Positions 5,739-58,709 of a DNA stretch of 64,000 nt are shown one piece after another. The stretch's first letter is position 1; each line of letters opens with the position of its first letter. The notes beneath the pieces were generated by a model that was given only the letters and a program-made list of their open reading frames with translations, was not told the origin of the DNA and ran no database searches. Source of the stretch: Mobula hypostoma (taxonomy: Eukaryota); the NCBI RefSeq assembly GCF_963921235.1, contig NC_086108.1, positions 36,644,001 to 36,708,000 on the forward strand, given 5' to 3'. The position numbers and the translations under genes were made by a program.

Positions 5739-5742
5739 GGAG

Positions 5743-5838
5743 CTAGTCCTGAAAAAGGGTCTCCCAAAACGTTGACTGTTTATTCTTTTCCATAGATGCT
5801 GCCTGGCTTGCTAAGTTTCTCTAGCATTTTGTGTGTGT
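5743..5838 (+). mobile_element. Penelope pLTR tail with decayed hammerhead, inverted relative to 3652-5738
   Basis: AGTCCTGAAAAAGGGTCTCCCAAAACGTTGACT followed by GATGCTGCCTGGCTTGCT…CAGCATTTTGTGTGTG. Confidence 0.75.
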
Positions 5839-14789: not shown

Positions 14790-15970
14790 ATGAACACAAG
14801 AGATTCTGCAGGTGCTGGAAATTCAGAATAACACACACACACACACAACTCTGAAGGAACTCAGGCAGCATCTATGGAAATGAAAATACAGGTGATGTTT
14901 CAGGTCATGATGTTTCAACAGAACCGGAAAGGAAGGGGGATGATGGCAGAATAAAAAGGTCGGAGGAGGGGAAGGAGGACAAGCTAGAATGTGATAGGTG
15001 AAGCCAGGAGGGTGGGAAAGGTAAATGCCTGGAGAAGAAGGAAACTTATAGGAGAGGAGAGCGTACCATGAAAGAAAGAGAAGAAGGAGGGGCACCAATG
15101 GGACGTGAGAGCCAGGCAAGTCCATCTTCAATGGAATTGTGCCATCAAACACATCTTTACCTCCACCACCCAATTCTTCACTTTCAATAGCGATTGCTTC
15201 CTCCGTGATTCCCTCGTCAATTCGTCCCTTCCCACTAACTTCCCTCCTTGCAAGCAACAGGCATGCAACACCGGCCCATTCATCAACCTCTTATCTCCAT
15301 TCAGGGCTGCAGTCCTTCAAGGAGAAGCAATATCTTCTATTGCCTATGGTCTATTGTATCCAATGCTTCTGATGCAGTCTTATCTACTTTGGTGACACGT
15401 AACATAAATTGGGGGGCTGCTTTGTAGAGCAGTTCTGCTCCAACACCAAAAACAGAATTTCCTGGTGGCCAACCATTTTAATTTCTATCCCATTTCTGTT
15501 CTGATATGCTGATCCATGCTCTCCCCTTCTGCCATGATGGGGCCACTCTCAGTGTGGTGGAGCAACACCTCATATTCCATCTGGGTAGCTTCCAGATTAA
15601 TGGCATGAACAGCCATTTCTACTTCCAGTAATTCCTTTCCTCTGCCCTTTCCTCCTCTTCCCTTCCCCAGTCTGGCCTCTTACCTCTTCTCCTCACCTGC
15701 CTATCACCTCCCCCCAGTGCCCCTCCTTCTTCCCTTTCAGCCATGGTCCACTATCTTCTCTTATCAGATTCTTTCCTCTCCAGCCCTTTATCTTTCCCAC
15801 CCACCTGGCTTCACCTATCACCTCCTTCACCTTTCAATTCTGGCATCTTCCCTCTTCCTTTCCAGTCCTAATGAAGGATCTTGGCCTGAAATATCGACTG
15901 TTTATTCATTTCCATAGGTGCTGCCTGACCTGCTGAGTTTCTCCAGCATTTTGTGTGTGTTTCTCTGGAT
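14790..15970. mobile_element. Head-to-head inverted Penelope-like pair (minus arm about 14790-15105, plus arm about 15106-15970)
   Basis: Both arms end outward in the GATGCTGCCTG…CAGCATTTTGTGTGTG tail; plus arm has CAGTCCTAATGAAGGATCTTGGCCTGAAATATCGACT (decayed hammerhead) near 15863-15899. Confidence 0.8.
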
Positions 15971-16549
15971 CTTCCCTCTCCTCTGCTTGCTGTCCTCCCC
16001 CTCTTTCTTCCGGACTAGTCTGTGGTAAACCTAGTCACATTTGGAGTTGAGAATCTATCGACAACCTTGTAGGAAGGACTTCCGAGGTGGAACGTGACAT
16101 TGTACAATAGGAAATTAGCTGAACGATGTTTCAATGTTAAATTTGAACAATATTGAAAAGATGATCTTTTTTGAAATATAGGCTGTTTTTCTACACTGTT
16201 TGTGTGGGAAAGGACCACAGTCTTCTGTTACTACGTATGGAGGGGATGAATAGGTGTGAAAGCCCCTCAAACACTGAGGGGACGTATCACTCCAGGGCAG
16301 CCACAAGTGGCAATGGTGTTGTGGTTTAAAAGATAATTAAATTAATCATGAATGCAAAAAGTTTTAAATTGTAATTTTGCATATATTTTAATTATGAATG
16401 AAGATTACTTTTGAAAATAAGTAAAATTGGTATGGGGGACTGTATAAATACTTGGTTCTGTTGCTCTTCATAAAGCTTTCAGACAGATCTGATCTGAACT
16501 GCAGGCACTAGATACCGCATACGCTGGAATTCAGAGCAGCAAAGAATCT

Positions 16550-16790
16550 GCAAAATCCAGAGTAACACACACAAAATGCTGGAGGAACTCAGCAAGTCAG
16601 GCAGCATCTATGGAGGAGAATAGATAATTGATGTTTTGGGCTGAGACCCTTCATCAGGAAGAGAGGAATTCAGAATCGGTACATCAACTGTGATGCAAGG
16701 ATTTGATTTGAAATGTCGACAGCTCATTTCCGCCCGCAGATTTTGCTTGACCCCTTGAATTCCTCTAGCTGATTGTTTGTTGATCTGAAC
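16550..16790. mobile_element. Short inverted pair of Penelope pLTR tails
   Basis: Minus arm reads CCTGATGAAGGGTCTCAGCCCAAAACATCAA plus tail (16560-16659); plus arm reads TGATGCAAGG…GAAATGTCGACAG plus tail (about 16690-16785). Confidence 0.65.
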
Positions 16791-19265: not shown

Positions 19266-21161
19266 TAAAAGATATCTTATTTAAAAAATATACCAAACAA
19301 ATTTAAAATTGATTTTTAAAATTAACTTCAAAGGCCTATCACTCCATTCATTGATGTGGAGGAGACAGATCATTTCATTCATCATCAGTAACCATTCTTT
19401 AAATTTGACTTGTCTTTGCATATACCTTATGCATGAGGTTGATGTGTGACTAAGGAAAACAGTGCTGAAGGCCTGCGACAGGAAGTTCATTAATGAAGTG
19501 CTGGAAAGGCATTTGGAATGAAAGCTAGTAACTAGGAAAGTCAAAGAGTTCTGCCGTAGGAAAGGGGTAAATCATTATGACAGTTTTACAGCACTATTTC
19601 TGAGGTAAATGATGAAAGTAACAAAACAACAGCAGGAGGAAAAAGTTATGGACTTCCTTGTTTATGAGATTTGAGCATTGCTCAGGACTAAATCACATTT
19701 TATGTACAGCTTTCAAAGGTCTTGAGAAAAGGAGAATAGCCAAGAGATTAGATCAGGTCAGAATTCATCATCTTGCCAATGAAGGCAGACCTAACAGAAG
19801 GCAGCAATTATGGAGCAATTAACTAAATTAGTAGCAGAAGCAAAATACTGCTGAATATTATATTTAATAGGGTCAGGAATAAAATTACTCAGGGACTTAC
19901 TGAGGAGGAGCAAGCAGGATTTGGATGAAGGATGAGTCTTAATTGTGTAGATACTAATTACAGACTGTTATTGAGATTTTTAAGAACCATTTATTGTACT
20001 ATAAACCTCAACCCGGTTACAAATATATTTAAAAATTCTGCACATCAGAGCATTCTTGGGTTGGTCAGCACCTAACAGGAAATTGGCCCGAGTTTCCAAG
20101 GAAGATTCACCTTGGCATGGTTGTCTTCCTGCCATCATAACGTTGTCACGTTGTCAAACTGTGCACATTTCTTCCACTGCATTATGTAATCTATGAAGTT
20201 CATTGCCCTCTCACTAAAGAACCAGGGTTGCATTGCATTGGGATCTAGAGTGCCACAGCAGGGAAAACCTGCCCTATAATACCGATGGCCTGTGGTGTTT
20301 CTTATACTGATTGCAACCGCTTTTGCTTTTATTTATATCAATTAAGAGCTCCCATTTGCTATCACCGGGCTACTGACCAGCCTTCGCTTTGCAGCTACCC
20401 CACTCCCATATGTTCTTTGCCTCAGTGGCTGGCAGACCTTTTTGCTTTCAGTACTGAACATCTCCTCAACAGTCCAGATGGCAAACTGCATGCTCAGTGG
20501 GAACTGCACAGATTCAGGACCGAGTTGCATATTGTCCTTAGGGCTAGTAGGATCAAGAGAAATGAGGAGGAAACTAGAATGGGACTCTGATCAGCCACGA
20601 TCATCAGGAATGGAGAAGTAGGCTCGAAGGACCGAATAGTCTACTTTCTGCATCTACTTCTATTTTAGAATGCCATTTTACTCCATTTGCAGCTTTTACC
20701 CCATTTCATTCATCATTTTGGGAGATTGGTGGGGATCAGCTCCATATACAGTATAGGTCATTTGTGTTAGCCCATCGGAAGAGAGAAAGACTCAAAATTT
20801 CTATCCATAAATGACGAACTCTGTCAGCTTTCAGTTGTAGATTTTTGCAGCAGGGAATTGAGATAAATCAAGAGGTAATGATGGAACTGAATGGATATAC
20901 AGAGCAGCAGGCTTCATGATTTCATTTACAGAACTGTTTGAACATAAAATAACCAGTAAAGGTACAAAGTTCAAAGTAAATTTATTATCCAAGTAAATAT
21001 GTCACCATATGCATGAGATTAATTTTCTCACAGACATACTCAATAAATCAATAGTATAATAATAACCATAACAGAATCAATGAAAGACCGTACTGACCAA
21101 TATGCAAAAGTTAATGAACTATGCAAATACAAAAAGAAGGAAATAATAATACATAAATAGG

Positions 21162-21719
21162 TGTAACACGTTGTAATATTTCATGCTAATGTAATGGTTT
21201 CTCTGTAGCAGCAGTGTTAGGGTTATGACTAGAGATAATGGGGACTTTTGAATGTGCTCTGGCCAATGGGGGAAGGTGTTCTTTTTCATGTGTGTCTGAG
21301 CGAAGGTTTCGCAGTCTTTTGTTGGGCGGAAGATGGAGAGAGTAGATGCCAGAACGGGGAAATTGTGGACTGCAGGATGGAGTGGACTTGGAATGGGGTC
21401 GGGAATTGACGTCCGAGGGGAAAATCGATGGACAATGAACAGACAGGAAAACAGTGAACTCCAACGTTGCACATTAGACTGGTTCATGAGAATGGGCCCT
21501 TTTTCTTTTTTGTTACTTTACTAACCCTATAGTCAAATTAAGAATTATAAAGTTCAATCGTTTAATTGCATATGGTGTACTGCTTGTTATTTCAGGGTAC
21601 TGATTTGTAACAGGGGAATACATTACACAGCATTCACCCAAACAAAACCTCACAGAAGTCTGGCTGTGCTGGAGGCTGTCTTCTCCTGGATTAAGCTGCT
21701 AGCCGAACCTAGGGTTACA
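21162..21719 (+). repeat. 5' LTR of Gypsy element
   Basis: TGTAACAC…GGTTACA; direct repeat of 27307-27859 with many substitutions. Confidence 0.93.
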
Positions 21720-21723
21720 ATTG

Positions 21724-21741
21724 TGGGGACTCGTCCGGGAT
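21724..21741 (+). promoter_or_regulatory. Primer-binding site complementary to tRNA-Pro 3' end
   Basis: TGGGGACTCGTCCGGGAT, 17/18 match to the canonical Pro PBS TGGGGGCTCGTCCGGGAT, 4 nt after the 5' LTR. Confidence 0.88.
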
Positions 21742-22009
21742 CGATTTCATTGGATGCTGTGTGATTACCCTGAGCATCAAACGAGTGGGTAGATATTTTA
21801 CTCTGGATGAATTGTTATTTCCCCTGTTAAGTACTGTTAAAGTTGCGATTGTGGGCGGTGGTTTGATAAAATGGTGGGTGCAGCTTTCGTTTTAATGCAG
21901 ACCAGCTTTGACGTAGATGTAGCTGGGGGGGGGGGGCCCAGAGGAAGAGTGAGAATTCTGAGGTAAAATCTGCCCTTATCTCTCTGGCGAATAAGTCCCA
22001 GCAATGGCA

Positions 22010-22778
22010 GGCACCTCCTATTCTCTGGAATAATGCCCACCCATAAAGGAGAAGAGGAGTATGAAACTTGGGTGGAGCATGTTAGATGAGTGACAGTGCT
22101 CTGATGACGTAAAGTGACAGAGATTGGTTGAGAGTTTGAGTGGGCGGGCTGCTGGCATTGTGAGAACTGACATGTTGTGGTATCTCCTAGCAATCGTGAG
22201 CGATTACATGTGAGCCCTGGAAAACTCTTGGCCCGACGGGAAGCTCAATGGAGCTCATGGTGGGGTTTCAGAACTTGCATCAGGAGAAGGGGGAGAAGCT
22301 TTCTGCTCATACTTTTTGGCGAGAGAGGCAGCTAAGTTGCTTGCAGCGCAGAGGAGTCATTCAGGCGGCTCAGGTGGATCAGTTAAGAATGGACCAGATA
22401 GCCAGGGGTACCCAGTCCCAGGACCTGATTGGTTGGGGTCTCCGACTGTCTCGTAAGACGCACCCCCCTTCCTCTTTTGTTGAGCTGATCAGAGAGGTTC
22501 GAGAGAAGGAGAATGTGTTGGAGGCGTGGGAGACCTCCGTCAGTGGAGTACAGTCCTCGGTAGTGGTCTCCTGTGGTGAAGTGACCGCAGATAGCCTACC
22601 CCGGGGAGTGGTAGAGGAGATTGTGACAGAGTTGAGAATTGAGATGTCTTGGCCGTTATCAATGGGTGTGATTCCCTGCCCCCCCCCCCATATGATGGAG
22701 CTGATGAGGGGGCAGATCCCCTCAGGGGATGAACAATGCAAAGGGCAGCTGGCAGCAGATGTCACGCGAGGAAAGTGA
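22010..22778 (+). pseudogene. Gypsy gag, PNMA/Ma-like capsid (disrupted)
   Basis: Translation near 22018 gives LFSGIMPTHKGEEEYETWVEH; ORF 22248-22778 has QEKGEKLSAH and PPSSFVELIREVREKE; in-frame stops and frameshifts. Confidence 0.75.
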
Positions 22779-22899
22779 ACCCACGGGTACCGAAGCAGAG
22801 AGAGTCATGGGGAAAATTTAGAGGAGACCCAGTTGGGGAACAGCCTGGTGTCTCTAGGGGAACATGTTCCCAGCAATATACAAAGGAACCCCTGAAAGC

Positions 22900-25800
22900 G
22901 AAAGGCCCTATTCCTGAAGGTTTAGTGGGACCATACTGCAGTGTGTCGATACGGATAGAGGGTATTTATGCTGAAGCCATACTCAACACCGGGTCACAGG
23001 TCACGTTGTTGTATCGTTCGTTTTACAACCAGCATTTACCATTGACCCTATTCAGGGCACTGAAGATCTGGGGGCTTAGTGCCAATGATTATCCATATGA
23101 CGGTTATTTGTCAGTGAAGTTGGAGTTCTCGGAGGCCGATGTGGGAGCGTCTGAGGTCCTTGATACATTGATGTTGGTTTGTCTGGACCCTGTTGAGAAG
23201 CGCAGCATTTCAATTCTGGTGGAGACCAACACCTCTCTTGTGAAGAGGCTCATGAGGGCCTGCAAGGAGAAGACTGGCGAGAGCTTTCTGGGAACACTCT
23301 CCGTGAACTTGGACTTTCAAGCTGCTTTTGTGGAAGTGCGTGGCTGCATTTGGTCAGGCAACGGATTTAGACGAGGGACTGTGTGGTTCACCCAGTTGAA
23401 GCCAATGGTGGTACGGCCCAGGGAAGTAGCAAGAGTGATGGGGACCCCCAAATTTCCCAGACTTCCTGAGGGCGAGGCATCTTAATGGATGCGCCGGAAG
23501 ACCACGAGGGGGAGTCGGGATTTCCTGCTGGGGTACTGGTGAGGCCCGAATTGTAGAAGCCCTCGGTTGTACAGGCAAGCAGGATGGCAGTGATTGACAG
23601 GAACATTACGAACAGGGAGGTCACCTTCAAGCAAGGGATGCCACGGTGCATTTGTTCCCGGTGACGGTAATGTCTAACATCTCTGTGAGACAGGCCGGGG
23701 AGAAACTATTGGGAAAAGGGTGCAAGTTGACTGCTGAGTCATTAAACTTCGGGGACTCCCTGGTTCCTGTGGGTTGGAAGAGGAGGCTGGTAGAGAAGAT
23801 GTTGAAGCTGAAAGGTCTCTTTTCCACCAACGAGTTTGATGTGGGTTGTTCCAAGAGCACTTGTCACACTATCCAGGAGACTGAGGACACCCCGTTTAGA
23901 GACAGGTTGTGGAGACTGGCCCCTGCAGATGTGAAAGACGGTGCAGCAGCATTTGTGTAAGTTGAAGGAAACTAGGATCATCACTGAGTCCCGAAGCCCC
24001 TATGCATCCCCAATAGTAGTGGCCTGAAAGAAGAATGGGAAGATACAGATGTGTGTGGACTACAAGACTCTGAACAGGCACACTGTCCCTGACCAGTATA
24101 TGGTCCTGAGGATTGAAGACGGCCTGTCTGAGTGGTGAGAAGTGGTTCAGTATGCTGGACTTGAGGAGTGGATATTACCAGATCCCCATGAGTGAGGCTG
24201 ACAATGAGAAGACGGCCTTTTTAGGTCCGCTGGGATTCTTTCATTTCGAAAGGGTGCCCCACGGCATATTGGGTGCCCCTGCAAACTTCCAACGGCCATG
24301 GAGAAGACGGCGGGTGATATGAACTTCCTTGAGGTATTGGTGTATCTGGATGACCTCATAGTGTCTGGATCCACCTTGGAAGAACATGAAGTGAGACTAC
24401 TGAAGGTGCTGGGTTGCCTGAAAGCTGAAGGGTTAGAATTTTCCCTGGACAGGGTCCAGTTCTGCAAAGTGTCTGTTAGCTATGTTGGGCACATAGTCTC
24501 ATAACAGAGCCGGCTAGGATAGAGGTGGTGACCACTTGGCCAAGACCCTAGACTGTGAGCACTTTGCGCTCTTTCCTTGGGTTCTGTTGTAACTATCAGA
24601 GATTCGCGAAAGGCTATGTGAAAGTGAGTTACCCATTGAATCAGCTTCTGTGCAGTTACCCTCCCTTGGGGAAGAAAAGGAGGAGAAAAAAGGACAGGAT
24701 GGTGGAGAGTATCTTAGCCCATCGGAGCCCTTTGGACCGAGGTGGGATGTAAAATGTGAGGACACCTTTCAGTCGCTGAAGGAGTTGCTAACTCAGGTGC
24801 CGGTGCTGGCTTTTGCAGACCCCCGGTTGCCGTATGTGCTGCACACGGATGCCAGCTGAGAGGGTTTAGGGGGCAGACACTGTATCAGGATCAGGGCTCC
24901 GGGTTGAGACCCGTTGCATTTGTCAGCCGGAGTTTGTCACCCTCCGAGAAAATCTATCCCACGCACAAGTTGGAATTTCTGGCGTTGAAATGGGCGGTGG
25001 TGGATAAGCTGAGTGACTACCTCTATGGGACCAAGTTTGAGGTGAGGGCGGACAACAGACCCTTAATTTATATCCTGACCTTGGTGAAACTGAATGCCAC
25101 AGGCCATCGTTGGATGGCGGCGTTGTCTGCCTATGACTTCAGCCTGAAGTACCAGCTGGGAAGCAGGAACTTTGATGCTGGTGCTTTTGTCCCGACGGGC
25201 GCATGAAGGACTGGACATGGTCAAGGAGTGGGAGAGTGTTCCTGCCCCGGTGCTGAAGGCCCTGTGTCAGTTTGCCATCACCGTGAAGGCAGAGGGAAAG
25301 GAGGGGCAGGATCGAGCGGTGGATCAATTGGGAGCTTCTGGTGACGCCATTGCCCACGTTTACTGTAACATGACAGCTCTGAAGACAAATCAGCTGCCGG
25401 AATTGAGTTCTGGGGAAGTGGCAGCTGCTCAGCGAGATGATCCATGCATTGATACCATTTTGTCAGCAGTTGAAAAGGGAGACATGGCTCAGGCAGAGAA
25501 GATGAAATATGTGGCGGTGCCTCTATTACTGAAAGAATGGCCTCAGTTGGAGTTGAAGAACCAGATCTTATACTGGGTCACGTCACCCCCGGACTGACCC
25601 CGGCGTTGCCAGCTGGGTCTGCCAGAGAAGTATCGGAGGATTGTACTGAAGTCACTTCGTGATAATTCTGGACTTTTGGTGGTTGAGAAGATCTATGGAT
25701 TGCTCAGAGACCAGTTTTATTGGCCCTGAATGAAGTCAGAGGTTGAAGAATACTGCAAGTCATGCATTTGATGCATACGGTGGAAGACACTGCCTATGCA

Positions 25801-26858
25801 GGCAGCTCCCTTGTCCCACTTGCAGAGTGCAGGGCCCCTGGACCTGGTGTGTATGGATTTCCTGTCAATAGAACCCGATGCCAGCAAGATGGCGAATGTC
25901 TTAGTCATCACGGATCACTACATCAGATATGCTCAGGCTTTTCCTATCAAGAACCAGAGGGCATCCACGGTGGCCAAAGTGTTATGGGAGAAGTATTTAA
26001 TTTAATATCGCCTTCCCGGGTGAATACATAATGATCATGGATAGGTTTTCGAGACTAGACTCATCTATGAGTTACTGGGCATGCTTGGAGTCGAGAAGGT
26101 GAGGCCATGGCCTATCATTTGCAGGATGATCCCCAGCCCAAGAGGTTTAATCAGACTTTGCTAGACATGCTTGGGACCTTGGAGATCAGAAAGAAGAGCA
26201 GGTGGAGTCAACATATTTGACATCTAGTCCACAGTTACAACTGTACCCGAAATGAAACTACTGGGTACTCACCATACTATCTGATATTTGGGCATGAGAA
26301 GAGGTTGCCCATTGACCTTTGTTTTGGGACTGACGAGGGCGACTTACCACTGAAGACATCTGAAATATGTGTCTGATATGAGAAGAGAGCTGAAAAGGGC
26401 TTATAATTGTTGTGGTAGTGGCTGCCAAGCAGAATCAAGGGAATAAGAGGAGGTATGATCAAAAGATGAGGTTCTCCCAACTCCTGCTGGGAGACAGAGT
26501 CCTCATAAGGAATTTGGGGCAACTTGGGAAGCATATGTTGGTTGACTGCTGGGCGGCTGCGCTCTATGTGGTGGAGAGTCAGATGCCAAACCTACCAGTT
26601 TTCTGGGTGAAACCGGAGGATGGGAATGGGCCTGTCAAGGTTCTCCATCAGAACCACCTGCTGCCCCTGAGACGAGAGATGCAGGTAGACCCAGAGCCTG
26701 ACTTGGAGCCTACACCCAGTAAGAGGACCTGGAAACACGGGGTGACGGCGGGGCCAACAGCAGGAGAGGTTAAGCTGGCCCCCACCCCTGAGAGGGATAC
26801 TGATTCAGAGGATGAGGACCTGGATGTGTGGTATATGCTGCCTTTTTCTAACTCCTGA
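22900..26858 (+). pseudogene. Gypsy pol (protease, RT, RNase H, integrase), fragmented
   Basis: AILNTGSQVT (protease with D>N), FSMLDLRSGYYQI, VYLDDLIV, LHTDAS, RPVAFVSRSL…KLEFLALKWAV, DLVCMDFL…VITDHY; many stops and frameshifts. Confidence 0.92.
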
Positions 26859-27293
26859 TTGATTGAGGAAGAGACTCCTAGCCCTTCTCCCTTCTCTTCT
26901 CAGGTGAAATTGGTGGGGGGGGGGGAGCGGGCTAGCTGTAGACAGCCTGGGTTGCAACGCGATCCTGCCAAGGAATGAAGTGGGACTTGGCCAAGGGACA
27001 GAGGGGTTCAAGTTGCCGTTGGGCATGAGTGAGAGGCTGGGGGAGGCCTCGTCAGGTAGACTAGAAGTATCCCCAGTAGTGTCGGAACCTGAAAAGTTAG
27101 GTGAGGGGGGACGGAGGTTTCAGGGAATTAGGAGACCACTGGATAGGCTGGCCTACGTAGCACCAGGGGAACAGAATGTGGTCCCTCCCATTTTGGGGAA
27201 CTATGTCACTGCCTTTCACACCTGGGTTGGACTTTGTGCTTTGCAGGAAGGGTTGGTGAATTATCTCAACGTCATAAGGACATGACTAAATTT

Positions 27294-27306
27294 AGTGGGG
27301 GGAGAG
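27294..27306 (+). promoter_or_regulatory. Polypurine tract
   Basis: AGTGGGGGGAGAG immediately before the 3' LTR. Confidence 0.85.
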
Positions 27307-27859
27307 TGTAACACACTGTAAGGTTTCATGCTAATGTAATGGTTTCTCTGTAGCAGCAGTGTTTGGATTAGGACTAGAGATAACGGGGACTTTGGAATGT
27401 GCTCTGGCCAATGAGGGAAGATGTTTTTCTTTCTTGTGTGCCCAAGTGAAGGTTTCACGGTCTTCTGTTGGACAAAAGGTGGAGAGAGAAGATACCAGAA
27501 CGGGGAAGTTGTAGTCTGCACGATGGAGTGGACTTGGAATGGGTCGGGAGTCGACGCCCAGGAGGGAATCGATGGAGAATGAACAGACAGGAAAACAGTG
27601 AGCTCCAGCATTGTGCATTAGACTGTTCCATGAGAATGGGCCCTTTTTCTTTTTTGTTTCTCTACTAACCTATAGTCAAATTAAGAATTATAAAGCTCAA
27701 TCTTTTAACTGCATATTGTGTGCTGTTTGTTATTTTGTGGTACTGATTTGTAATGGGGAACACATCACACAGCATCCACCCAAACAAGATTTCTCAAGTT
27801 TGGCCTGGTTGGAGGCTGTCTTCCCCTAGATTAAGCTGTTAACCGAATCTAGGATTACA
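27307..27859 (+). repeat. 3' LTR of Gypsy element
   Basis: TGTAACAC…GGATTACA; direct repeat of 21162-21719. Confidence 0.93.
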
Positions 27860-34788: not shown

Positions 34789-37055
34789 CAGTGTTTCCCA
34801 ACCATTTTTAGCACAAAACCCCCCTAAATCACCTTCATTCTTGCCATTGCCTCTCTTAAGCATAATATACTTTCTGGCACCCCCATAGTGTAAAAACATG
34901 TTTACCATATGCTCACATGAGAAAAATAATTCTACTTTAAATTTTTATTTGTCTTTAAACCTAGCTTACGCAGTACCTGTGTGCTGTACAGCAGCTTCGA
35001 TATCAATGTGATCTTTAAGCTTGATGGTTTTTAGCAAGAGTTGAAATATCTGGTTCAAGTTAAATCCCCATGCCTAACAATGTCCTCGTGGTTTCTGTTT
35101 TTTTGTGAGTATGTGGTTCACTGCACTGAAGCCTCTTTCAACAAGGTAGTAGGATGGAAATGCAATGAAGAGCAGTTTGGCTCTTCTCCAAGGACCAGGA
35201 AACTTCGTATGACAGTGCACCCACCTACCGCAAAAGCCCAAAAATTTTTACAAAACATTTTTGCTTCTTCATCATATGGAATTTCAATAATTTCTTCTTG
35301 CAAATTCTCTTCATGTTCTCCTCATGTTCTTGCAGAGAAATGAGTTAGTACCGAGTCTGGAATTTCCAGATCATTCAAATCCTTGAATCGATTCTGAAAA
35401 TTCTTCTTCAGTGACTGCAGGTGTAAGTAGTACGCTTGCAAATCACTGTCTGTGAAAGAGAGTGACATACTTTCCATGCAGGGAGACTGAGAACATTCTT
35501 CTTCCTATGTTTTACTTATATATTTCCAATTTTCTGAAAAAAGTGAACACTGCAGTTTTTGCCTGGGCTAAATTGAAATTTTCACCCTACAGTTTAATAT
35601 TTAGAATGTTCATTTTGGCATACAGATTGGCTAGGTATGCCACATATCCATGTAGAGGTTGAATCTTGTTTCCGAAGCTCTTGTAAACTTTGAGTAAAAA
35701 TGCTACCACAGTGTCAAAAAGATTGAAGAAATATTTTAAGCAGCGTCCTTTTGATAACCAACACACTTCAATGTGAAGAAGCAAGCGTTCAAACTCTTCA
35801 TCTTTATCTTGGTATAACTGGCAAAATATTCTGCTATTTAATGGATGAGCTTTAATTTTGTAGTGAGCAGATATTACAAGAATCATGCTTGAAAAAAGTC
35901 GCTGGCTGAGGTTTTTGGCTATGAGGTGTCGACGATGAATACACAATGGATTGGAAACAGACTTGGAATTTCTTTTCTCATAAATGCCACTAATCCAGCA
36001 TGGCAACCTGTCATATACGGTGCTCCACCTGTTGCGCAGAAAATCATGTTCCTAATTGGAATACTTTTATGCTCAATATATATTTTGAGCTTGTCATAAA
36101 TTGATTCTCCGTTGATATTTGTTTTTAAATTTTTATGAGAGAGTATGTGTAAAATTTTCCATTTTTGATAAACTGTTCATGTGCCATTAGCAATGCCTCA
36201 TTGTCTCACACAGTTGTATCCCAAATTCTGTTTGTTGTAGCTCTGTGCGTGGTTGATACTCAATGTCTTCAATCATTTCATCAATACGATGAGCTACAAA
36301 GTTATTACTTGGAGGAATTGATTTTAAGATACTGGTATCCATTTTGAGAACAGTGGTGAGCACTTCTGATACAGCAGGCATTATTAATCTTTCATCAATT
36401 GTATGAGATTTTCCACACTCTGCTATCATTTTGGAAATGTGATATGAAGCAATGAGACTACTATCAAGATCATTTTTAGCTTTCTTGGCAAATGACTCGA
36501 GTGTGCAATGCTTTTCAAATGTTTCTTTCATCTTCTGGAACTGAATAATACCATAAGTAGCCTTTTCAGTGTGCCTTTTACAGAAGTGTTCCTGCAGTCT
36601 TGATGGTTTCATGACTTCATTAGGCAGTACAGTATACAAATAAAATACATGGGGTCTCACTGATCTGATGAAATTGGAATAAAACCCACACCCCAGGTAT
36701 GTAACATTGTATTGACGCACTTCCTGTTGTTTCTGTTTCTTAGCAGGATTAGAATTCAAGGCTTCACTGCCTTCAGGCACATAGAGATCATGCCATACAT
36801 ATTTATCCATCATTAACAGGGCTAAATTAAATTAAAAAAAGAACACAAACTAGGAATTCCTGTTGGATGTTGATGATGACAGTGAGTTGACACCGATAGA
36901 ACGATGGCAGCGGCACGCAAAGGAACGGCGAGACGAAGATGAAGATGATCACAACAGAGAAAATTACGTTGACAAGGAATCAGATTGGAATCTGAATGTT
37001 GGTCGGGATAGATCTGATGTTCAGGAAGCTACCTTTATTCTATTCCAGCCAGCGT
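34789..37055 (-). mobile_element. hAT (Buster/Charlie-like) DNA transposon relic with one TIR
   Basis: TIR CAGTGTTTCCCAACC at 34789 preceded by CATTAGAA; minus ORFs 36187-36813 (BED-like MKPSRLQEHF…H) and 35587-36006 (CIHRRHL, LLLHIEVCWLSKGRCL); second TIR not found. Confidence 0.88.
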
Positions 37056-39480: not shown

Positions 39481-40605
39481 TTCCTGCTGTACCAAAGGGT
39501 TGTCTTTGAAAACAAAGGCTCTGGCAGACTGATGTGATACCAATAGGGAACATTGGTATCTTCTTTGGCAGAGTGCTGACGTGTTGCTTGATCTCTCTGG
39601 AAACTATATCAGGTATAATGTACATTGACAGAACTAGGCTGGAACACTCATCATAAGATTGAAAAATTAGCACATCCAAATATTTATAACTATCTCTCTA
39701 GAGTTGGACTTCAACCCCTAACATTTGCATTCAAATATGAGAATGCTACATTTGTACATTCTCTCTGTGACTGTGCGTGTTTATCTGGCTGTCCCTACTT
39801 CCTATCTTAATTGATCACCCTGAATTACCCCTTTCTTGTGGTTGAGTGGCATAATCAGGTGTGGGGTGGTGGTTGTGGTGAGGTGAAGATGATGTCGGAA
39901 CAATAACATAAAGGAATTAATGTAGAATGAGTGTAAAATGGTGCTTGGTGGCCAGTGTGGATTTGATGGACCTGTGTCTTTGTCATGTCTCTCTGTGACA
40001 CAATGGTCTTTAAGATTTCTGTATGCCAACAGAGTGTACCATGGACCCACATGTTAGATGTTGGTAAGATTACTCAGTATCTTGTGCTTAGTAATGTGTC
40101 ATCAAAGCAGTTATGCATGTTTTGATTGAGGTAACAAAAATAATTTGGATCCAATGTAGTGAAGACTAACAAATAGTAAGTGACAAAACTAGTTATTTAT
40201 AGTAATTTCTTATGAAAAAGAAAGATAAACAAATGGCTGAATACAGAGCATTCAAGAATAGGCACTTTGGACCATTGCATCTGAGCTGACCCTGTTGTCA
40301 GTCTAAATTAATTCCATCTGCCTTGAATATCTGTATCCCAAAATTCCTGCCTGTTCACATGTCTGTCTAAATGCCTTTCAAACGGTGCTGTTGTATCTGT
40401 TTCTACAATCTCAGTTGGCAACACACACCAGGAACTTGCCACTTACTGTGTAAAACAAAAAAACCTGCCTCATAAGTCTACTTCCAACTTTTTCCTTCTG
40501 ACCTTTAATCTACGCTTTCTAGATTTAACACTTACACCTTGTGGGAAAAGGATTTAGTTATCCACCCTACCTATGCTCCTCATAATTTTGTATACTTCTA
40601 TCAGG

Positions 40606-40852
40606 CCAACTCCGCCATGGATGGTCCCAAGCCTGGCTGTGGAAGGAGGAGGGTTGGGCACGGGGCTAGCGATCCCATCCGTTAAAGCCTAGAGCCATAG
40701 AAATGCCAACAGAAGCTCCAAATATCTTATCCCTGGGAGAGGAAGGATCTTCAAAGATGGACTACACCTCTGGACAACTTGAAAGACTGGCACAGGAAAG
40801 AGGACTCTGGTGAGCTGCTGTTGGTGGCCTATGCCCCAGGCTTAACTGGTAA
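40606..40852 (+). mobile_element. Non-autonomous 247-bp retroelement with twister-ribozyme head and RTE-like 3' tail
   Basis: 8-bp TSD CTATCAGG (40598-40605 and 40853-40860); twister motif at the 5' end; 3' end GCACAGGAAAGAGG…GCTGTTGGTGGCCTATGCCCC…TAAC resembles RTE termini. Confidence 0.75.
40608..40657 (+). ncRNA. Twister ribozyme motif (3' cleavage-product form)
   Basis: AA-CUCC-GC…UGG-U-CCC-AA-GC-CUG…GGAG-GA-GGG-UUGG: P2 CUCC/GGAG, T2 GC/GC, T1 CCC/GGG, conserved GA; P4 weakened by CpG-type changes. Confidence 0.75.
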
Positions 40853-42049
40853 CTATCAGGATACTTGTCAGTCTCTAATGCTCCAGAGAAAACAATACAA
40901 ATTTGTCCACACTCTCTTTAATACATACCAATCTAGGCAATATCCTGGTGAACCTCTTCTGTCCCCTCTCCAAAGTCTCCATACCCTTCCCATAGTGTGA
41001 CAAGCAGAACTACACCCAACACTCCAGATACCCGGGCGCTAAATGGAAAGATTCTTCACACTACTTGGTAGTCTTTGCTTTTCAGGCTAAGATTACTAAA
41101 CTGAAAGCTGACTAAAGTGGATGATGGAGTGTACCAATGATACTTATTTTGCAGTTTTGACTGATTAATGTGATGGAATTTTTCCTCACACTGTTAAATA
41201 CATGAGCTTAAAAATCTGTGGTCTGGTGAATAGTCTGTTGTCTGTGATAACAATTCTGTGTGACTTTCAGTAGTTTGGTGATCTGAGATGTCCCAGTGAT
41301 ATTTGTCTTAATTACCATTATCTCGAGTATATTGCTAATTTGACTCCTGCAAAATATATTAGGTGTGCCACAGAACAATAGGAGTATTGAGCAATTACCA
41401 TTATTATGTTAAACTTGATTCAGATTCTGATCACCGGTATTCACTTTCTTTAACTGTTTCTGTCCTGCCCAGGGGATGCTGTAAACTCAGACGCTGAAAT
41501 CAAACCCACTGCATTCACCAAGAACTTCCTAATGCCAGTGAAGTGTATTTACACCTGTCTCTGATAGGATTTTCCTCTACATATCTGAGAACCATTTGTT
41601 AATGATTTTAATAATAGTGAAGCAATAACTAATTAGAATGTATGTTCCCAATTTCTCAGTCTCTTAATATAGTTAGCTTTCTTCAATTGTATTTCCTCAG
41701 CAATGAAATAATTATCCAGGCTGCATTAATTCCTCATGCAGAAAGTAGCTATTAAAAACTATTTTAGCAGACATCTATATATTAAGCCAAGGTGACTGAT
41801 ACAATTATTAATAGTAATATTACCTACGTTTATTGTGGTTATGATGTTAATAAATAATTATGTTGCCCCAGAGGTTGTTAGTTAATATTTCAATTGCTCT
41901 CCACATATGCTTTGCATTCTCAGTAATCTCAAGCTCTTATTCATCACATAAATCATTTAAAAGACTACTCAGTGCCTGATTAACTATATGCCTGTGAAGT
42001 AAACAGATCTTTCTAAAACATAAAACTTGCAAGCATTACCTTTGAATAG

Positions 42050-46233: not shown

Positions 46234-46387
46234 ATATTACACACTCAAATCTACATATTACACACTCAAATCTACATATATTAAACACTCAGATCTACAT
46301 AATACACATTCAAATCTACATATTACACACTCAAATCTACATATTGAACACTCAGATCTACATAATACACACTCAAATCTACATATT
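46234..46387. repeat. Minisatellite, about 7 copies of a 21-bp unit ATTACACACTCAAATCTACAT
   Basis: Direct reading of tandem units. Confidence 0.9.
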
Positions 46388-51976: not shown

Positions 51977-53069
51977 TACGAAGGGAAAAAGGGTCATTTG
52001 TCTGTGGGAAAAATTGTTTGTAACTGATTAGATACAATTCAGGCCAGCACGCATTTCCTAATTTTTGCACTTGCTGAGAGAGTTGGGGAACCAAAGCTAC
52101 ATTGAAGGCAGAGCTCTGAAGTTTCTCCTTGAATGCAGACACAATGGAGCAAAAAGGCTGGAGACATGCGTTATATTTTGGAATTTCAATTTCTTGCTCT
52201 CCATTAAACACATTGCTCTAGTCACAACAGGACCTGAATCATGCTATCAATCTCTTTGTGTTCTTCCTGCCATTATCAGTCATGCTGGTCACTCTTAGCC
52301 TCCATTCTCCTACTTGTGTGGTAACTTTTCATACATGTGCCTGTGCAGAATCAGCACCTACTGTTTCGTCCAAACTACATTGCTCACTTATATTTACTTC
52401 CATTCCCTCTTTATCATTGATACATCTATTAACGGTTAATTCCCCAGGTTCCCCTGACTGTACCAACCGTGTCTACAGTGTCTACCACTAAGAAGAACAG
52501 GGGCAATAGCAGGCAGGACCTCTGCCACCCTGTTGAATCTTCTTCAAGTTGCTAACCATCCTGGTCTGGAAATGTACCTTCATTCTTTCATCACTTCTGG
52601 GTCTAAATTCTAGTGTTCCCTAATGAATAGCACCTTGAGTGCACTTTCACTGGAGGAATTACAGTAGTTGAAGAAGCAAGCAACTCACCATCAGCCATTT
52701 GAAGTTCATTTTGGAATCGGCCATAGACATTGGCTTTGCCAGCATTGTTCCTGATTTCAAAAATGTATTAAAATGCACATGTATAAATTATTGGTTGCTT
52801 TATATTAATACCTGTATATTAAATAACACAGAGGGAGTTAAACATGCCCTTTCCATTCAAACAGATGTATATCAGGGATCATCAGTTGACAAACAGAAAC
52901 GAGAAATTCAGGCTAATTGTATTCTTATAAGACAGCCTTGAGATGAGGAGTCTCTCAAACATAATCTCCTTATTGATATTTAAAAGACATTGTTACTTTG
53001 CTCCCTATGTTACACCATTGGAAAATAAATTCATCTAACTTGCCTTGATTCCATGGTATCTAAGTCAGA

Positions 53070-53190
53070 AAGTTATTGGCTCAGGTTCTACTCCAGAGAT
53101 TTGAGCTGACATTCCAGGTCTACAGCGCAGTGGCACACTGAGGGAGTTCTGTACGCTCAGAAGTACAATCTTTCTGATGAGCTGTTAGCA
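53070..53190 (+). mobile_element. Ancient Deu-domain (SacSINE1-like) SINE relic
   Basis: AGTCAGAAAGTT…CTCCAGAGATTTGAGC…CACTGAGGGAG…TCTTTCTGATGAG…GTTA; recognised from memory only. Confidence 0.45.
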
Positions 53191-53627
53191 TTAGCACTTG
53201 CCAGCTTTCTTGCATGAAAGTAAACGATTCCATGTTACAATTAAAATAAAGACCATACGAGTTGTTGCTGGTTTGCGTCAGCTAATTTCATTGAAACAAA
53301 TCTGTTTAGGAATTCAATTATATCGGGTTGTTCTGTTTTCAACAATACGTAATTCAAAATCTATTTTCATGGTAAGAACTATCTAGGTTTTATTTAGCAT
53401 TTGACTGGATACACAATTTCTTTACCAGATACTGAATGGAAAATAACATTATCTTTTTAGTGCAACCATCATCAGTTTTCACAGTGCAAAGTCAATAAAT
53501 TCCTTATTTAACTTTTATCAGACTGACAACCCCATACCACCCCTGCAGTGACCTGCCTCTGTGATCCCAGTGTTGCTGCTGGCCCTGTGGCCTCCTGAGA
53601 GAGGCTGGCTTGCCGATTGACTGATGA

Positions 53628-53726
53628 TGAGTCCTGACGAAGGGTCTCGGCCCGAAACGTCGACTGTACCTCTTCCTAGAGATGCTGCCTGGCCTGCTGC
53701 GTTCACCAGCAACTTTGATGTGTGCG
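53628..53726 (+). mobile_element. 99-bp solo Penelope hammerhead plus tail insertion
   Basis: 13-bp TSD GATTGACTGATGA (53615-53627 and 53727-53739); 53630-53724 matches 58275-58369 except one base. Confidence 0.9.
53630..53665 (+). ncRNA. Minimal type I hammerhead ribozyme, intact core
   Basis: AGUC-CUGACGA-A-GGGU-CUCG-GCCC-GAAAC-GUC-GACU: stem I AGUC/GACU, stem II GGGU/GCCC, palindromic ACGU stem III, predicted GUC cleavage after 53661. Confidence 0.85.
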
Positions 53727-54518
53727 GATTGACTGATGAGATGGTTTAGTGAACCTGCCTTTGTGTGTTTAGGCTAAGTTTTGAGAGAGACAATTAAATG
53801 GCAACCTCATTGGTGATGGCAGCATAAAGTACAAAGGAATTGCAAATAGTTACTGCTGTACATAAGCCTGGAATAGATCAATATGGTTAAATGGAAATAA
53901 AGAAATAAATCTTCCCTGATGAGTTATAAAGCATGAACATCGGAGTCGAATTAGGCCATTCAGCCCATTGTGGCTGCTCCACCATTCCTTCAATGCTGAT
54001 TTATTTTCCCTCTCAACCCCATTTTCCTGCCTTCTCCCTGTATTCTTTGACATCCTGACTAATCAAGAATCTATCAAACTTTGCTTTAAATATAACGTAA
54101 TGACTTAGCCTCTACAACTGTCTGTGGTAATGAAATCCAAAGATTCATTAACTTCTAGCTAAGGAAATTCCTCCTCACCTCTGTTCAAAATGGATGCCCC
54201 TCCTTTCTGAGGTTACACCATCAGGTCCTAAACTCCTCCAGTACAGGATCATCCTCTCCACATCCACTCCATCTAGGCCTTTAAATATTTGATCGGTTTC
54301 AATAAGATCCCCTCTCATTCTTCTCAACTCCAGTGAATACAGGCCCAGAGCCATCAAATGAGCCTCATGCAATAACCCTTTCACTCCTTGAATCATTCTT
54401 GTGAACTTCCTCTGGACCTTCTTCAATGCCAGCATATCTTTTCCTAGATAAGTGGCTCAAAACACCGCACTATATTCCAAGTGTGGTCTGACCAATGCCT
54501 TATAAAGCCTCAACATTA

Positions 54519-55350: not shown

Positions 55351-55918
55351 AACATTACATCCTTGCTCTTATATTCTAGTCCATTTGAAATAAATGCTAA
55401 CATTACATTTGCTGTCCTTACTAATGTCTCAATCTGCAAGTTAACCTTCGGGGAATCCAGCAAAAGAACTCCCAAATTCCTTTGCACCTCTGTATTTTTT
55501 AAATTTTCTACCCATTTAGGATCTAGTCTATGCCTTTATTCTTTCTATTGAAGTGCATGACTATACACTTCCTTACACTATATTCCATCTGCCACTTCTT
55601 TGCCCATTCTCTTAATCTGTTTGTCAATCTGCAACGTAAGTCCTTCCTCATCACCACACACCCCTTCACCTATTTTTGTATCATTTGCCAACTTGGCCAC
55701 TAAGCTATCAACTCTGTCATCCAAATCATTGACATAAAGTCTAACGTGAAAAGTAGTGAACCCAGCAGAAACCACTAGTTAATGGCAGCCAGCCAGAATT
55801 GGCCCCATTTATTCCAACTTTCTACCTGCTGCCAGTCAGCCCATCTTCTATCCACGCTACACACATCAAAGTTGCTGGTGAACGCAGCAGGCCAGGCAGC
55901 ATCTCTAGGAAGAGGTGC

Positions 55919-55954
55919 AGTTGATGTTTCAGGCCGAGACCCTTCGTCAGGACT
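55919..55954 (-). ncRNA. Minimal hammerhead, partly decayed
   Basis: AGUC-CUGACGA-AGGGUCUCGGCCU-GAAAC-AUC-AACU; two CpG-type changes in stems I and III. Confidence 0.7.
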
Positions 55955-56244
55955 AACTGAAGGAAGAGTGAGTAAGGGATTTGAAAGTTGGAGGGGGAGG
56001 GAGAGATCCAAAATGATAGGAGGAGACAGGAGGGGGAGGGATGGAGCCAAGAGCTGGACAGGTGATTGGCAAAAGGGATATGAGAGGATCATGGGACAGG
56101 AGGTCCGGGAAGAAAGACAAGGGGGGGGCCCAAAGGATGGGCAAGGGGTATATTCAGAGGGACAGAGGGAGAAAAAGGAGAGTGAGAGAAAGAACCTGTG
56201 TATAAAAATAAGTAACAGATGGGGTACGAGGGGGAGGTGGGGCA

Positions 56245-57205
56245 TTAGCGGAAATTAGAGAAGTCGATGTTCATGCCATCAGGTTGGAGGCTACCCAGAC
56301 GGAATATAAGGTGTTGTTCCTCCAACCTGAGTGTGGCTTCATCTTTATAGTAGAGGAGGCCGTGGATAGACATGTCAGAATGGGAATGGGATGTGGAATT
56401 AAAATGTGTGGCCACTGAGAGATCTTGCTTTCTCTGGCGGACAGAGCGTAGGTGTTCAACAAAGCGGTCTCCCAGTCTGCGTCGGGTCTCGCTAATATAT
56501 AAAAGGCCACATCGGGAGCACCGGACGCAGTATATCACCCCAGCCGACTCACAGGTGAAGTGTTGCCTCACCTGGAAGGACTGTTTGGGGCCCTGAATGG
56601 TGGTAAGGGAGGAAGTGTAAGGGCATGTGTAGCACTTGTTCCGCTTACACGGATAAGTGCCAGGAGGGAGATCAGTGGGGAGGGATGGGGGGGACGAATG
56701 GACAAGGGAGTCGCGTAGGGAGCGATCCCTGCGGAAAGCAGGGGGGGGGGAGGGAAAGATGTGCTTAGTGGTGGGATCCCGTTGGAGGTGGCGGAAGTTA
56801 TGGAGAATAATATGTTGGACCCGGAGGCTGGTGGGTTGGTAGGTGAGGACCAGGGGAACCCTATTCCTAGTGGGGTGGCGGGAGGATGGAGTGAGAGCAG
56901 ATGTACGTGAAATGGGGGAGATGTGTTTAAGAGCAGAGTTGATAGTGGAGGAAGGCAAGCCTTTTCTTTAAAAAAGGAAGACATCTCCCTCGTCCTAGAA
57001 TGAAAAGCCTCATCCTGAGAGCAGATGCGGCGGAGACGGAGGAATTGCGAGAAGGGGATGGTGTTTTTGCAAGAGACAGGGTGAGAAGAGGAATAGTCCA
57101 GATAGCTGTGAGAGTCAGTAGGCTTATAGTAGATATCAGTGGGTAAGCTGTCTCCAGAGACAGAGACAGAAAGATCTAGAAAGGGGAGGGAGGTGTCGGA
57201 AATGT
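56245..57205 (-). pseudogene. Penelope polyprotein C-terminus: RT end, Cys-rich linker and GIY-YIG endonuclease (one frameshift near 56960)
   Basis: LPFLDL…YYKPTDSHSYLDYSSSHP…IPFSQFLRLRRICS; CKRNKCYTC; GVIYCVRCSRCGLLYISETRRRLGDRFVEH…QPDGMN. Confidence 0.92.
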
Positions 57206-57320
57206 TCTTAAACACATCTCCCCCATTTCACGTATCTTAAACTCATCTCCCCCATTTCACGTCTTACAAACATCTCCCCCATTTCACGTATCTTAAACGC
57301 ATCTCCCCCATTTCACATAC
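57206..57320 (+). repeat. Four tandem 27-29-bp copies of TCTTAAACACATCTCCCCCATTTCACGTA at the inversion junction
   Basis: Units start at 57206, 57235, 57262 and 57291; single copy in the opposite arm near 56904-56932. Confidence 0.9.
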
Positions 57321-58274
57321 ATCTGCTCTCACTCCATCCTCCCACCACCCCACTAAGAATAGGGTTCCCCTGGTCCTCACCTACCACCCCACCAGCCTCC
57401 GGGTCCAACATATTATTCTCTGTAACTTCTGCCACCTCCAATGGGATACCACCACTAAGCACATCTTTCCCTCCCCCCCCTCTCTGCTTTCCGCAGGGAT
57501 CGCTCCCTACGCGACTTCCTTGTCCATTCGTCCCCCCCATCCCTCCCCACTGATCTCCCTCCTGGCACTTATCTGTGTAAGCGGAACAAGTGCTACACAT
57601 GCCCTTACACTTCCTCCCTTACCACCATTCAGGGCCCCAAACAGTCCTTCCAGGTGAGGCAACACTTCACCTGTGAGTCGGCTGGGGTGATATACTGCGT
57701 CCGGTGCACCTGATGTGGCCTTTTATATATTGGCGAGACCCAACGCAGACTGGGAGACCGCTTTGCTGAACACCTACGCTCTGTCCGCCAGAGAAAGCAG
57801 GATCTCCCAGTGCCCACACATTTTAATTCCACATCCCATTCCCATTCTGACATGTCTATCCACGGCCTCCTCTACTGTAAAGTTGAAGCCACACTCAGGT
57901 TGGAGGAACAACACTTTATATTCCGTCTGGGTAGCCTCTAACCTGATGACATGAACATCGACTCCTCTAACTTCAGCTAATGCCCCACCTCCTCCTCGTA
58001 CCCCATCTGTTACTTATTTTTATACACACATTCTTTCTCTCACTCTCCTTTTTCTCCCTCTGTCCCTCTGAATATACCCCTTGCCCATCCTCTGGGTCCG
58101 CCCCCCCCTTGTCTTTCTTCCCGGACCTCCTGTCCCATGATCCTCTCATATCCCTTTTGTCTATCACCTGTCCAGCTCTTGGCTCCATCCCCCCCCCCTC
58201 CTGTCTTCTCCTATCATTTTGATCTCCCCCTCCCCCTCCAGCTTTCAAATCCCTTACTCACTCTTCCTTCAGTT

Positions 58275-58310
58275 AGTCCTGACGAAGGGTCTCGGCCTGA
58301 AACGTCGACT
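58275..58310 (+). ncRNA. Minimal type I hammerhead ribozyme, core intact
   Basis: AGUC-CUGACGA-AGGGUCUCGGCCU-GAAAC-GUC-GACU. Confidence 0.82.
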
Positions 58311-58709
58311 GTACCTCTTCCTAGAGATGCTGCCTGGCCTGCTGCGTTCACCAGCAACTTTGATGTGTGTTGCATGAATTTCCAGCATCTGCAGAATTCC
58401 TGTTGTTTGCGTTCTAGGTACGCTAGTATCTTTCCAGTAATACCATGGGCTCTTCACTTGTTTAGCAGCTTATGTGCTGCATCTTGTCAAAAGCCTTCTG
58501 GAAATCCAAGTGCTTTTCGTGGCTGTTGTTTCCTCAAAGAATTCCAACAGATTTGTCGGGCAAGATTTCACGGTAAGGAAACCATGCTGAGCTTGGCCTG
58601 TTTTATCATGTGCCTCCAAGTACCCCTTAATAATGGACTCCAGTAATCTTCCCAATCACTGAAGTCAGGCTAACTGGTCTGTAATTTCCTGTCTTGCCTT
58701 CCTCTCTAA

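What the first reader, a model, noticed from the sequence alone, without database searches (positions are those of the whole stretch)
53615..53739. 99-bp insertion that is almost exactly one intact hammerhead ribozyme plus tail
Seen: perfect 13-bp TSD GATTGACTGATGA. Homology to the Penelope pLTR begins exactly at the first base of stem I (AGTC, 53630), and the core, stem II and GUC site are intact. The target itself contains CTGATGA, which resembles the core. Established: Penelope-like elements carry minimal type I hammerheads with a palindromic stem III that cleave mainly as dimers. Inference: the copy derives from uncleaved RNA. It is either a truncation caused by RT stalling at the ribozyme fold or a minimal mobile ribozyme unit, and it could cleave a host pre-mRNA together with a partner such as 58275-58310 on the same strand.
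Basis: partly seen in the sequence, partly recalled or inferred. Interest (0 to 1): 0.7.

Follow-up and report, generated by a model that had tools for sequence, protein, structure and literature searches.

The report
Penelope stub starting at ribozyme edge
This 99-base insert is a real stub of a very abundant Penelope-type jumping gene, and most of its sister copies also appear to begin just in front of the hammerhead motif rather than at the motif's cut site, which likely marks where the copying enzyme ran off the front end of the element's uncut RNA, so the ribozyme is likely a passenger and not a self-spreading unit.

Summary
Confirmed: a 13-bp duplication flanks 99 bp, 94 of 95 bases matching the end of a Penelope-like element at 58275-58369, with an intact minimal hammerhead. 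The site is empty in two related species and filled in two.

Across the family, depth rises about 3.5-fold at 58256-58291, at most 6% of it at the cut site. 3' ends pile at two sites about 41 nt apart, the known internal RT starts. So the template was uncleaved RNA, and 5' ends cluster from about 15 nt upstream of stem I to its first base.

Plain RT stalling fits poorly, because copies end behind the fold, not in front of it. I favour run-off at the RNA's capped 5' end (0.55): Initiator-like sites and a frequent extra G support it, but both are weak, and no RNA data were laid.

An independent mobile ribozyme or host-mRNA cleavage is unlikely. The monomer is predicted to lock its core, and no host exon was found.

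This is a known kind of element. The run-off reading was not found in my paper searches, but this scan has noted it on several other genomes.

The parts
53615..53627 (+). left copy of the 13-bp target-site duplication
   Evidence: single copy at the empty site in X9 and X10
53628..53629 (+). two extra bases TG; G stands where the element has T (58274): a copied RNA cap or a slipped TGA triplet (both inferred)
53630..53665 (+). minimal type I hammerhead motif: stem I AGTC/GACT, core CUGACGA, bulged A, 4-bp stem II with G10.1-C11.1, palindromic ACGU instead of stem III; predicted cut 53661/53662
   Evidence: sequence, compared with the description in PMC4209133; folding
53666..53724 (+). element sequence downstream of the ribozyme, up to the 'near' 3' end (58369-58372 in the long copy), the likely internal RT start
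53725..53726 (+). CG not matching the element at this place; part of a longer duplication, slippage or untemplated (unresolved)
53727..53739 (+). right copy of the target-site duplication
57291..58411 (+). long, 5'-truncated sister copy: GIY-YIG region, pyrimidine-rich UTR, hammerhead 58275-58310 (G10.1-U11.1), ends at the 'far' site with a 42-nt tail; used as reference
55860..57227 (-). inverted long sister copy (RT C-terminal part, CX4CxxC linker, GIY-YIG region, mutated hammerhead), ends at the 'near' site; forms one divergent two-armed unit with 57291-58411
58260..58275 (+). zone where most family copies appear to begin; Initiator-like A at 58260, 58271 and 58275 (consensus recalled)
16536..16664 (-). 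older-subfamily stub that also starts at the stem I edge, with a perfect 10-bp duplication (16526-16535, 16665-16674)

Best explanation
The insert is a stub of an endonuclease-bearing Penelope-like retrotransposon that spans the hammerhead's predicted cut site, likely made when the element's reverse transcriptase primed at a nick in the target, started inside uncleaved RNA about 63-65 nt past the cut site, and ran off the likely capped 5' end of that RNA at stem I. Shown: real insertion with duplication and empty sites; identity to the element's end; two preferred 3' ends about 41 nt apart; 5' ends of most family copies lying between about 15 nt upstream of stem I and its first base; almost none at the cut site. 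Inferred: that this zone is the transcription start, that the extra G is the copied cap, and that the 3' ends are RT starts (by analogy with the anole element). The copy has no ORF and likely no promoter of its own, so it is likely a dead end with a passenger ribozyme that is predicted to fold inactive.
For: (a) Depth on 58100-58430 rises from 2.4-4.2 M in most UTR bins (58124-58255, dip to 1.7 M) to a plateau of 14.6 M in X1, and from 0.9-2.7 M to 9.4 M in X5. The highest UTR level is 0.29 and 0.28 of the plateau. (b) A k-mer ramp model calibrated on the 3' ends (near 58371-72, far 58412-13) puts a single step at 58264-58266; an added step at the cut site takes 6% (X1) and 3% (X5). (c) In the window, 5 of 8 copies with an internal start begin within profile positions 299-306 (stem I = 302), P about 1e-4 for any 8-nt zone; 6 further copies reach the start of the profile. 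(d) Of the 11 distinct go-back joints shown, 7 land at 58271-58279 and none at 58100-58270. Of the 4 landing at 58271 or 58275 with known linker letters, 3 have a single G, as does the focal copy. (e) Loose ends before 53630 are heterogeneous (agreement 0.37-0.40), like true 3' junctions (0.39-0.43), not like one alternative upstream sequence. (f) Three Initiator-like sites lie in 58258-58277, P = 0.016 by shuffling (consensus recalled, window chosen after the fact). (g) PMC11167929 (parts 1-2 of 4 read): RT starts at two internal sites that define the tail, uncleaved RNA is the main substrate, and shortening the RNA's 5' end shortens the product. PMC2377424 (parts 2-3 of 4 read): the start site lies inside the pLTR. 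PMC11702581 (one passage): full-length L1 insertions carry an extra G from the cap.
Against: No RNA was examined. Depth is summed contig depth in 12-base bins, which the tool says is no copy number; reference variants in the C-rich UTR depress the baseline. The best fit needs much of the step near 58260; steps fixed at 58271 or 58275 alone fit 2-4 times worse, so stem I itself is not the single start. G linkers are not specific: 2 of the 6 joints landing elsewhere also have a single G and 4 of 6 end in G. The focal G can be a slipped TGA. Two of the five window stubs (16664, 39388) have no G in front. In D. virilis Penelope the start (position 371) lies about 120 nt upstream of the intron end (491), which abuts stem I. 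The TATA-like stretch at 58243-58250 is a poor match.
Confidence: 0.55

Rival explanations
1. Fold-dependent termination: RT copies through the 36-nt hairpin, and refolding of RNA or cDNA behind it, next to a U/C-rich template, releases the cDNA 0-15 nt past stem I. This is a modified form of the first reader's stall.
For: The predicted monomer is one long hairpin (-11.9 kcal/mol). The fitted step centre (58264-58266) lies about 10 nt beyond the hairpin base, and the spread over about 15 nt suits a soft stop.
Against: The cDNA hairpin is weak (-3.8 kcal/mol). In vitro, product length of the anole enzyme followed the RNA's 5' end, on templates tiled from -126, upstream of its ribozyme. It does not explain repeated landings at exactly 58275, often behind a G.
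Confidence: 0.2
2. Ordinary random 5' truncation. The depth step is an artefact of UTR variation or of a sister subfamily with another UTR, and this copy ends at stem I by chance.
For: The C-rich UTR has indels and variants (G inserted at 58220, A>G at 58148) that lower mapped depth, and no 5' loose-end peak is among the rows shown.
Against: In-window clustering, 5 of 8. 7 of 11 go-back joints land at 58271-58279. No high-agreement loose end at 58255-58275 among the rows shown. The step is the same in two species.
Confidence: 0.1
3. An independent, SINE-like or retrozyme-like mobile ribozyme unit that is transcribed and copied on its own.
For: Roughly 70% of family depth is short copies; tandem hammerhead duplications exist elsewhere in these genomes.
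Against: The copy is a monomer, one base from an ORF-bearing copy. It shares both 3' ends with long copies, and no short-copy-specific variant reaches 10%. TRF finds no tandem array at this place. Retrozyme units run from cut site to cut site (established knowledge); this one does not.
Confidence: 0.07
4. The RNA front end is made by splicing: the pyrimidine tract with CAG (58270-72) or TAG (58274-76) is a 3' splice site, as in D. virilis Penelope.
For: The sequence fits a branch-like site, pyrimidine tract and AG (consensus recalled). PMC4209133 maps the D. virilis intron end to the 5' end of helix I.
Against: A spliced template would put one shared first exon before the acceptor. Loose ends are heterogeneous, no strong skip joint lands there among the rows shown, and this copy keeps the AG.
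Confidence: 0.05

Closest known systems
Endonuclease-positive Penelope-like elements, Neptune type by linker (Craig et al. 2021, PMC8557442, passages read; Arkhipova et al. 2013, PMC3846280, passages read)
   Same: C-terminal GIY-YIG, CX2-5CxxC linker, heavy 5' truncation, inverted partner copy, optional 30-40-bp tail (42 here), hammerhead in the terminal repeat, TSD
   Different: The passages read describe truncation as variable and name no preferred 5' end at the ribozyme edge.
Poseidon element PAc of Anolis carolinensis (Frangieh et al. 2024, PMC11167929; parts 1-2 of 4 and passages read; supplement 2 held only figure labels)
   Same: Two internal 3' ends that define the tail; uncleaved RNA as template; both target strands can be extended (matches the two-armed unit 55860-58411)
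   Different: Different clade; the ORF start here was not located. The parts read do not map genomic 5' ends or a cap.
Minimal hammerheads of metazoan PLEs (Cervera and De la Pena 2014, PMC4209133; parts 1-2 of 4 read)
   Same: Bulged base between 9 and 10.1, G10.1-C11.1, palindromic 15.2-16.2, short stem I; mostly single motifs ascribed to truncated PLEs; no cleavage as monomer and low cleavage as dimer
   Different: Stem II has 4 bp, not the 7-8 of the Schistosoma motifs. C7 lets the core pair with CGUC into a predicted inactive hairpin.
Animal non-LTR retrozymes (Li et al. 2026, bioRxiv 10.64898/2026.07.22.740005; parts 1-3 of 5 read; supplements closed)
   Same: Type I hammerhead, derived from PLE terminal repeats, non-coding
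   Different: Defined as tandem repeats with at least two hammerhead units; this is a solo copy with a TSD.

Membership tests
EN+ Penelope-like element | C-terminal GIY-YIG endonuclease upstream of the same terminal sequence | tested here: met
   Frame 56245-56967(-): ESM Atlas hits at 0.97 to clusters with PF01541 on 13-60% of members. Pfam scans of the same frame gave no hit.
EN+ Penelope-like element | RT of the PLE clade by phylogeny | not tested
   Only the C-terminal RT part is in the window; no tree was built.
EN+ Penelope-like element | Terminal repeat with hammerhead, optional 30-40-bp tail, inverted truncated partner, TSD | tested here: met
Neptune/Nematis clade | CX2-5CxxC zinc-finger-like linker between RT and EN | tested here: met
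   CX4CxxC in frame 56245-56967(-); definition
Minimal type I hammerhead | Core CUGANGA, GAAA, stems I and II, palindromic 15.2-16.2, NUH site | tested here: met
   sequence; no Rfam model reaches gathering score
Minimal type I hammerhead | Self-cleavage (as dimer or protein-assisted) | not testable with these tools
   Predicted open fold has probability 8e-4; the dimer is about 10 kcal/mol uphill, tertiary contacts ignored.
Non-LTR retrozyme | Tandem array of at least two hammerhead-bearing units | tested here: not met
   single copy with TSD; no TRF array here
Non-LTR retrozyme | Expressed circular RNA monomer | not tested
   No RNA run was laid.
Full-length (cap run-off) retrocopy | Extra untemplated G at a transcription start | tested here: inconclusive
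   G present here and in 3 of 4 joints at 58271/58275, but also at other landings; start site not mapped.

The most novel reading that the evidence does not exclude
These Penelope-like elements put the hammerhead at the very front of a capped RNA and prime about 95 or 137 nt behind the cap. Their default product is then a short strong-stop-like cDNA, which either lands as a stub (most copies) or jumps to another RNA position to build terminal repeats and longer copies. Jumps from stem I back to 58305-58313 make 35-39-nt head-to-tail hammerhead pairs, a direct route to the birth of animal retrozymes.
Probability: 0.3. Interest if true: 0.7.

Novelty: new member of a known kind. Interest (0 to 1): 0.4.

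Why it matters
The insert itself is an ordinary dead stub, one of roughly 20,000 by a crude estimate. What matters is the pattern it belongs to. The papers read leave open what the hammerhead of Penelope-like elements does and how their terminal repeats are regenerated. Genomic copies that begin just before the ribozyme and almost never at its cut site say that cleavage does not make the template. They give a cheap test, CAGE plus an endpoint histogram, of whether the element works through a short run-off cDNA. This locus is also a clean marker, filled in organisms A and B and empty in C and D.

Tried and rejected
No genome was held for the window, so no assembly-wide endpoint histogram could be made. 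Pattern scans found 0 matches: metagenome contigs twice, viral contigs once, prokaryote genomes once. Rfam at gathering score gave 0 matches in 64 kb. No RNA holder was listed for 52600-54400; this says nothing on expression, and no RNA run was laid.

Host gene: 120 frames were scanned with Pfam at E 0.01 (115 of the 162 unmasked frames of 42 aa or more, plus 5 others). The only hit above a curated cut-off was a LINE RT; three more were below cut-off. Short or unconserved exons would be missed, so a host intron is not excluded.

Considered and rejected: a role for the target's CTGATGA as an annealing site, because the junction keeps AGTC whole; and templates cut by the ribozyme, because there is no step at 58307. 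A 15-17-bp TSD with a mutated left copy is possible but less simple. The empty-site contigs join at 53614/53727, which suggests they lack G at 53614 (read from the tool's placement rule; the base was not shown).

TSD searches on older stubs found none for 14566 or 5742 and only a 10-of-12 match for 39388. Whether organism A also has an empty allele was not visible (128 joints hidden).

Literature: 'Penelope-like + strong-stop + hammerhead' gave 0 papers. 'Penelope, hammerhead, capped, truncated copies, transcription start' (4 of 5 terms) gave 2 plant retrozyme papers. Searches showed nothing on preferred 5' ends in their listings. The library lacks most subscription journals. Figure S2 of PMC11167929 is an image and could not be read; it may show 5' ends. 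The bioRxiv supplements are closed.

Full report
Observation. The 13-mer GATTGACTGATGA stands at 53615-53627 and 53727-53739 with 99 bases between, and nowhere else in the window; chance is about 1e-5. Bases 53630-53724 match 58275-58369 at 94 of 95 and 55954-55860 (- strand) at 91 of 95. Laying public contigs on 53250-54150 shows a true insertion. In organisms C (X9) and D (X10), one contig each runs from 53614 directly to 53727. Organisms A (X1) and B (X5) carry both junctions. Flank differences from the window were 15 of 686 bases for B, 21 of 552 for C and 29 of 525 for D, so the insertion most simply arose after the split from C and D and before A and B parted (inference).

What it belongs to. 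The same end follows a GIY-YIG region and a pyrimidine-rich UTR at 57291-58411 (+) and 55860-57227 (-), which form one divergent two-armed unit. The frame at 56245-56967 (-) resembles GIY-YIG clusters in the ESM Atlas at 0.97. Pfam gave no hit. It has a CX4CxxC linker, the mark of Neptune/Nematis elements in PMC8557442 (passages). The host is probably a ray; this rests on recalled repeat motifs and earlier scan notes and was not tested. A profile search found 15 stretches in the window, 14 with the ribozyme or tail.

3' ends. Laying X1 and X5 on 58100-58430 gives loose ends at about 58373 and 58413 with heterogeneous flanks. A k-mer ramp model fits two drops at 58371-72 and 58412-13. The focal copy and the minus arm end at the near site, and the plus arm at the far one. 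This matches the two internal RT starts that define the PLE tail in PMC11167929 (parts 1-2 read); the equation is by analogy.

5' ends. Depth rises from at most 4.2 M in the UTR to 14.6 M in X1, and from 2.7 M to 9.4 M in X5, between 58256 and 58291. The ratios are 0.29 and 0.28, or very roughly 30,000 copies of which 9,000 are long; the tool warns that this is no copy number. One step fits best at 58264-58266. A step at the cut site takes only 6% and 3%, and a single step at 58307-58311 fits about ten times worse. Mixtures of starts at 58260 plus 58271 or 58275 fit best, and 58271/58275 alone fit poorly. In the window, 5 of 8 internal starts lie at profile positions 299-306 (stem I = 302), P about 1e-4. 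One of them (16536-16664) has its own perfect 10-bp duplication; 14566 and 5742 have none found. Of 11 distinct go-back joints shown (101 joint rows hidden; one joint seen in both runs counted once), 7 land at 58271-58279 and none further upstream. So the template was uncleaved and ends cluster at the ribozyme's 5' edge, though over about 15 nt rather than at one base.

Why there. RT moves 3' to 5' and meets stem I at 58310 first, so a plain stall would leave copies that lack the ribozyme; the data show the reverse. I favour run-off at the RNA's 5' end. Initiator-like A's lie at 58260, 58271 and 58275 (consensus recalled; P = 0.016, post hoc). The focal copy has G where the element has T directly before A+1, and 3 of 4 joints at 58271/58275 with known linkers have one G, the mark of a copied cap in full-length L1 inserts (PMC11702581, one passage). 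The D. virilis start site lies inside the pLTR (PMC2377424, parts 2-3), and in vitro product length follows the RNA's 5' end. Against this: G linkers also occur at other landings (2 of 6 single G, 4 of 6 ending in G); the focal G may be a slipped TGA; two of five window stubs lack a G; no 5' loose-end peak is among the 12 rows shown (528 hidden); in D. virilis stem I abuts an intron end about 120 nt downstream of the start; and no RNA was examined. Fold-dependent release after the hairpin stays possible (0.2), as does a mapping artefact (0.1).

The ribozyme. The motif fits the minimal type I form of PMC4209133 (parts 1-2), which shows no cleavage as a monomer and little as a dimer. Here C7 lets GACG pair with CGUC. 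The core is predicted paired with probability 0.96-1.0, the open fold has probability 8e-4, and an active dimer with 58275-58310 is -12.1 against -21.9 kcal/mol for two separate hairpins (secondary structure only). The partner has G-U at 10.1-11.1 and lies 4.6 kb away. No host exon was found. Cleavage of a host RNA is therefore unlikely, though untested.

Not a separate unit. The copy is a solo monomer and fails the tandem criterion for retrozymes in bioRxiv 10.64898/2026.07.22.740005 (parts 1-3 read). The one variant above 10% in ribozyme and tail (58312 T>C, about 22%) is also carried by the long minus arm.

Novelty. The element type, the ribozyme, solo truncated copies, the tail and the uncleaved template are published. 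A preferred 5' end at the ribozyme edge with a cap signature was not found in my searches, with the limits given under Tried and rejected. This scan has noted the same reading on several other genomes. One such note suggested the RNA-start reading as I obtained. I wrote the cap-G idea before seeing the notes. Those notes are unreviewed and are not counted as support. Verdict: a new member of a known kind, interest 0.4; the strong-stop-like reading has probability 0.3 and would merit 0.7.

Noticed in passing
window 55846-58425: The two long copies form one divergent two-armed insertion, one arm ending at the near and one at the far 3' site. It is flanked by a degenerate 14-bp duplication (11 of 14; 55846-55859 and 58412-58425), with a 29-bp tandem stutter at the inversion point (57206-57316).
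   Followed up: partly
joints on window 58305-58313 back to 58271-58276 (runs X1, X5; also X9): Elsewhere in these genomes the hammerhead alone is duplicated head to tail with a 35-39-nt unit; one form has depth 129, about 8 times single copy. These are the pairs that could act as dimers and may be seeds of retrozymes.
   Followed up: no
window 53613-53614: Organism B has TG instead of CC immediately left of the duplication, while the right junction has CG; this may be a longer duplication or CpG decay.
   Followed up: partly
window 3648-5840 and 14794-15988: Two older two-armed Penelope units. In the first, the plus arm starts at stem I (5742) and a LINE fragment (about 4200-5500) interrupts the minus arm.
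   Followed up: partly
window 58298 and 53653: Both long young copies have U at hammerhead position 11.1, whereas the stub keeps the conserved C; no T>C variant of 10% or more was listed there, so the weaker G-U form may be the family majority.
   Followed up: no
window about 21000-27600: Decayed LTR-retrotransposon-like (Gypsy-like by recalled motifs) gag-pol frames with similar sequence near both ends.
   Followed up: no
window 35587-37030: Frames resembling a decayed hAT/SCAND3-type DNA transposase (recalled motifs; no Pfam hit for the one frame of this kind that was scanned, 36190-36831).
   Followed up: no
window 40598-40860: An earlier scan note reports a twister-headed mini RTE element here (e1-7942443); not checked. 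Rfam at gathering score found nothing in the window.
   Followed up: no
window 46234-46387: 21-bp minisatellite, 7.2 copies.
   Followed up: no
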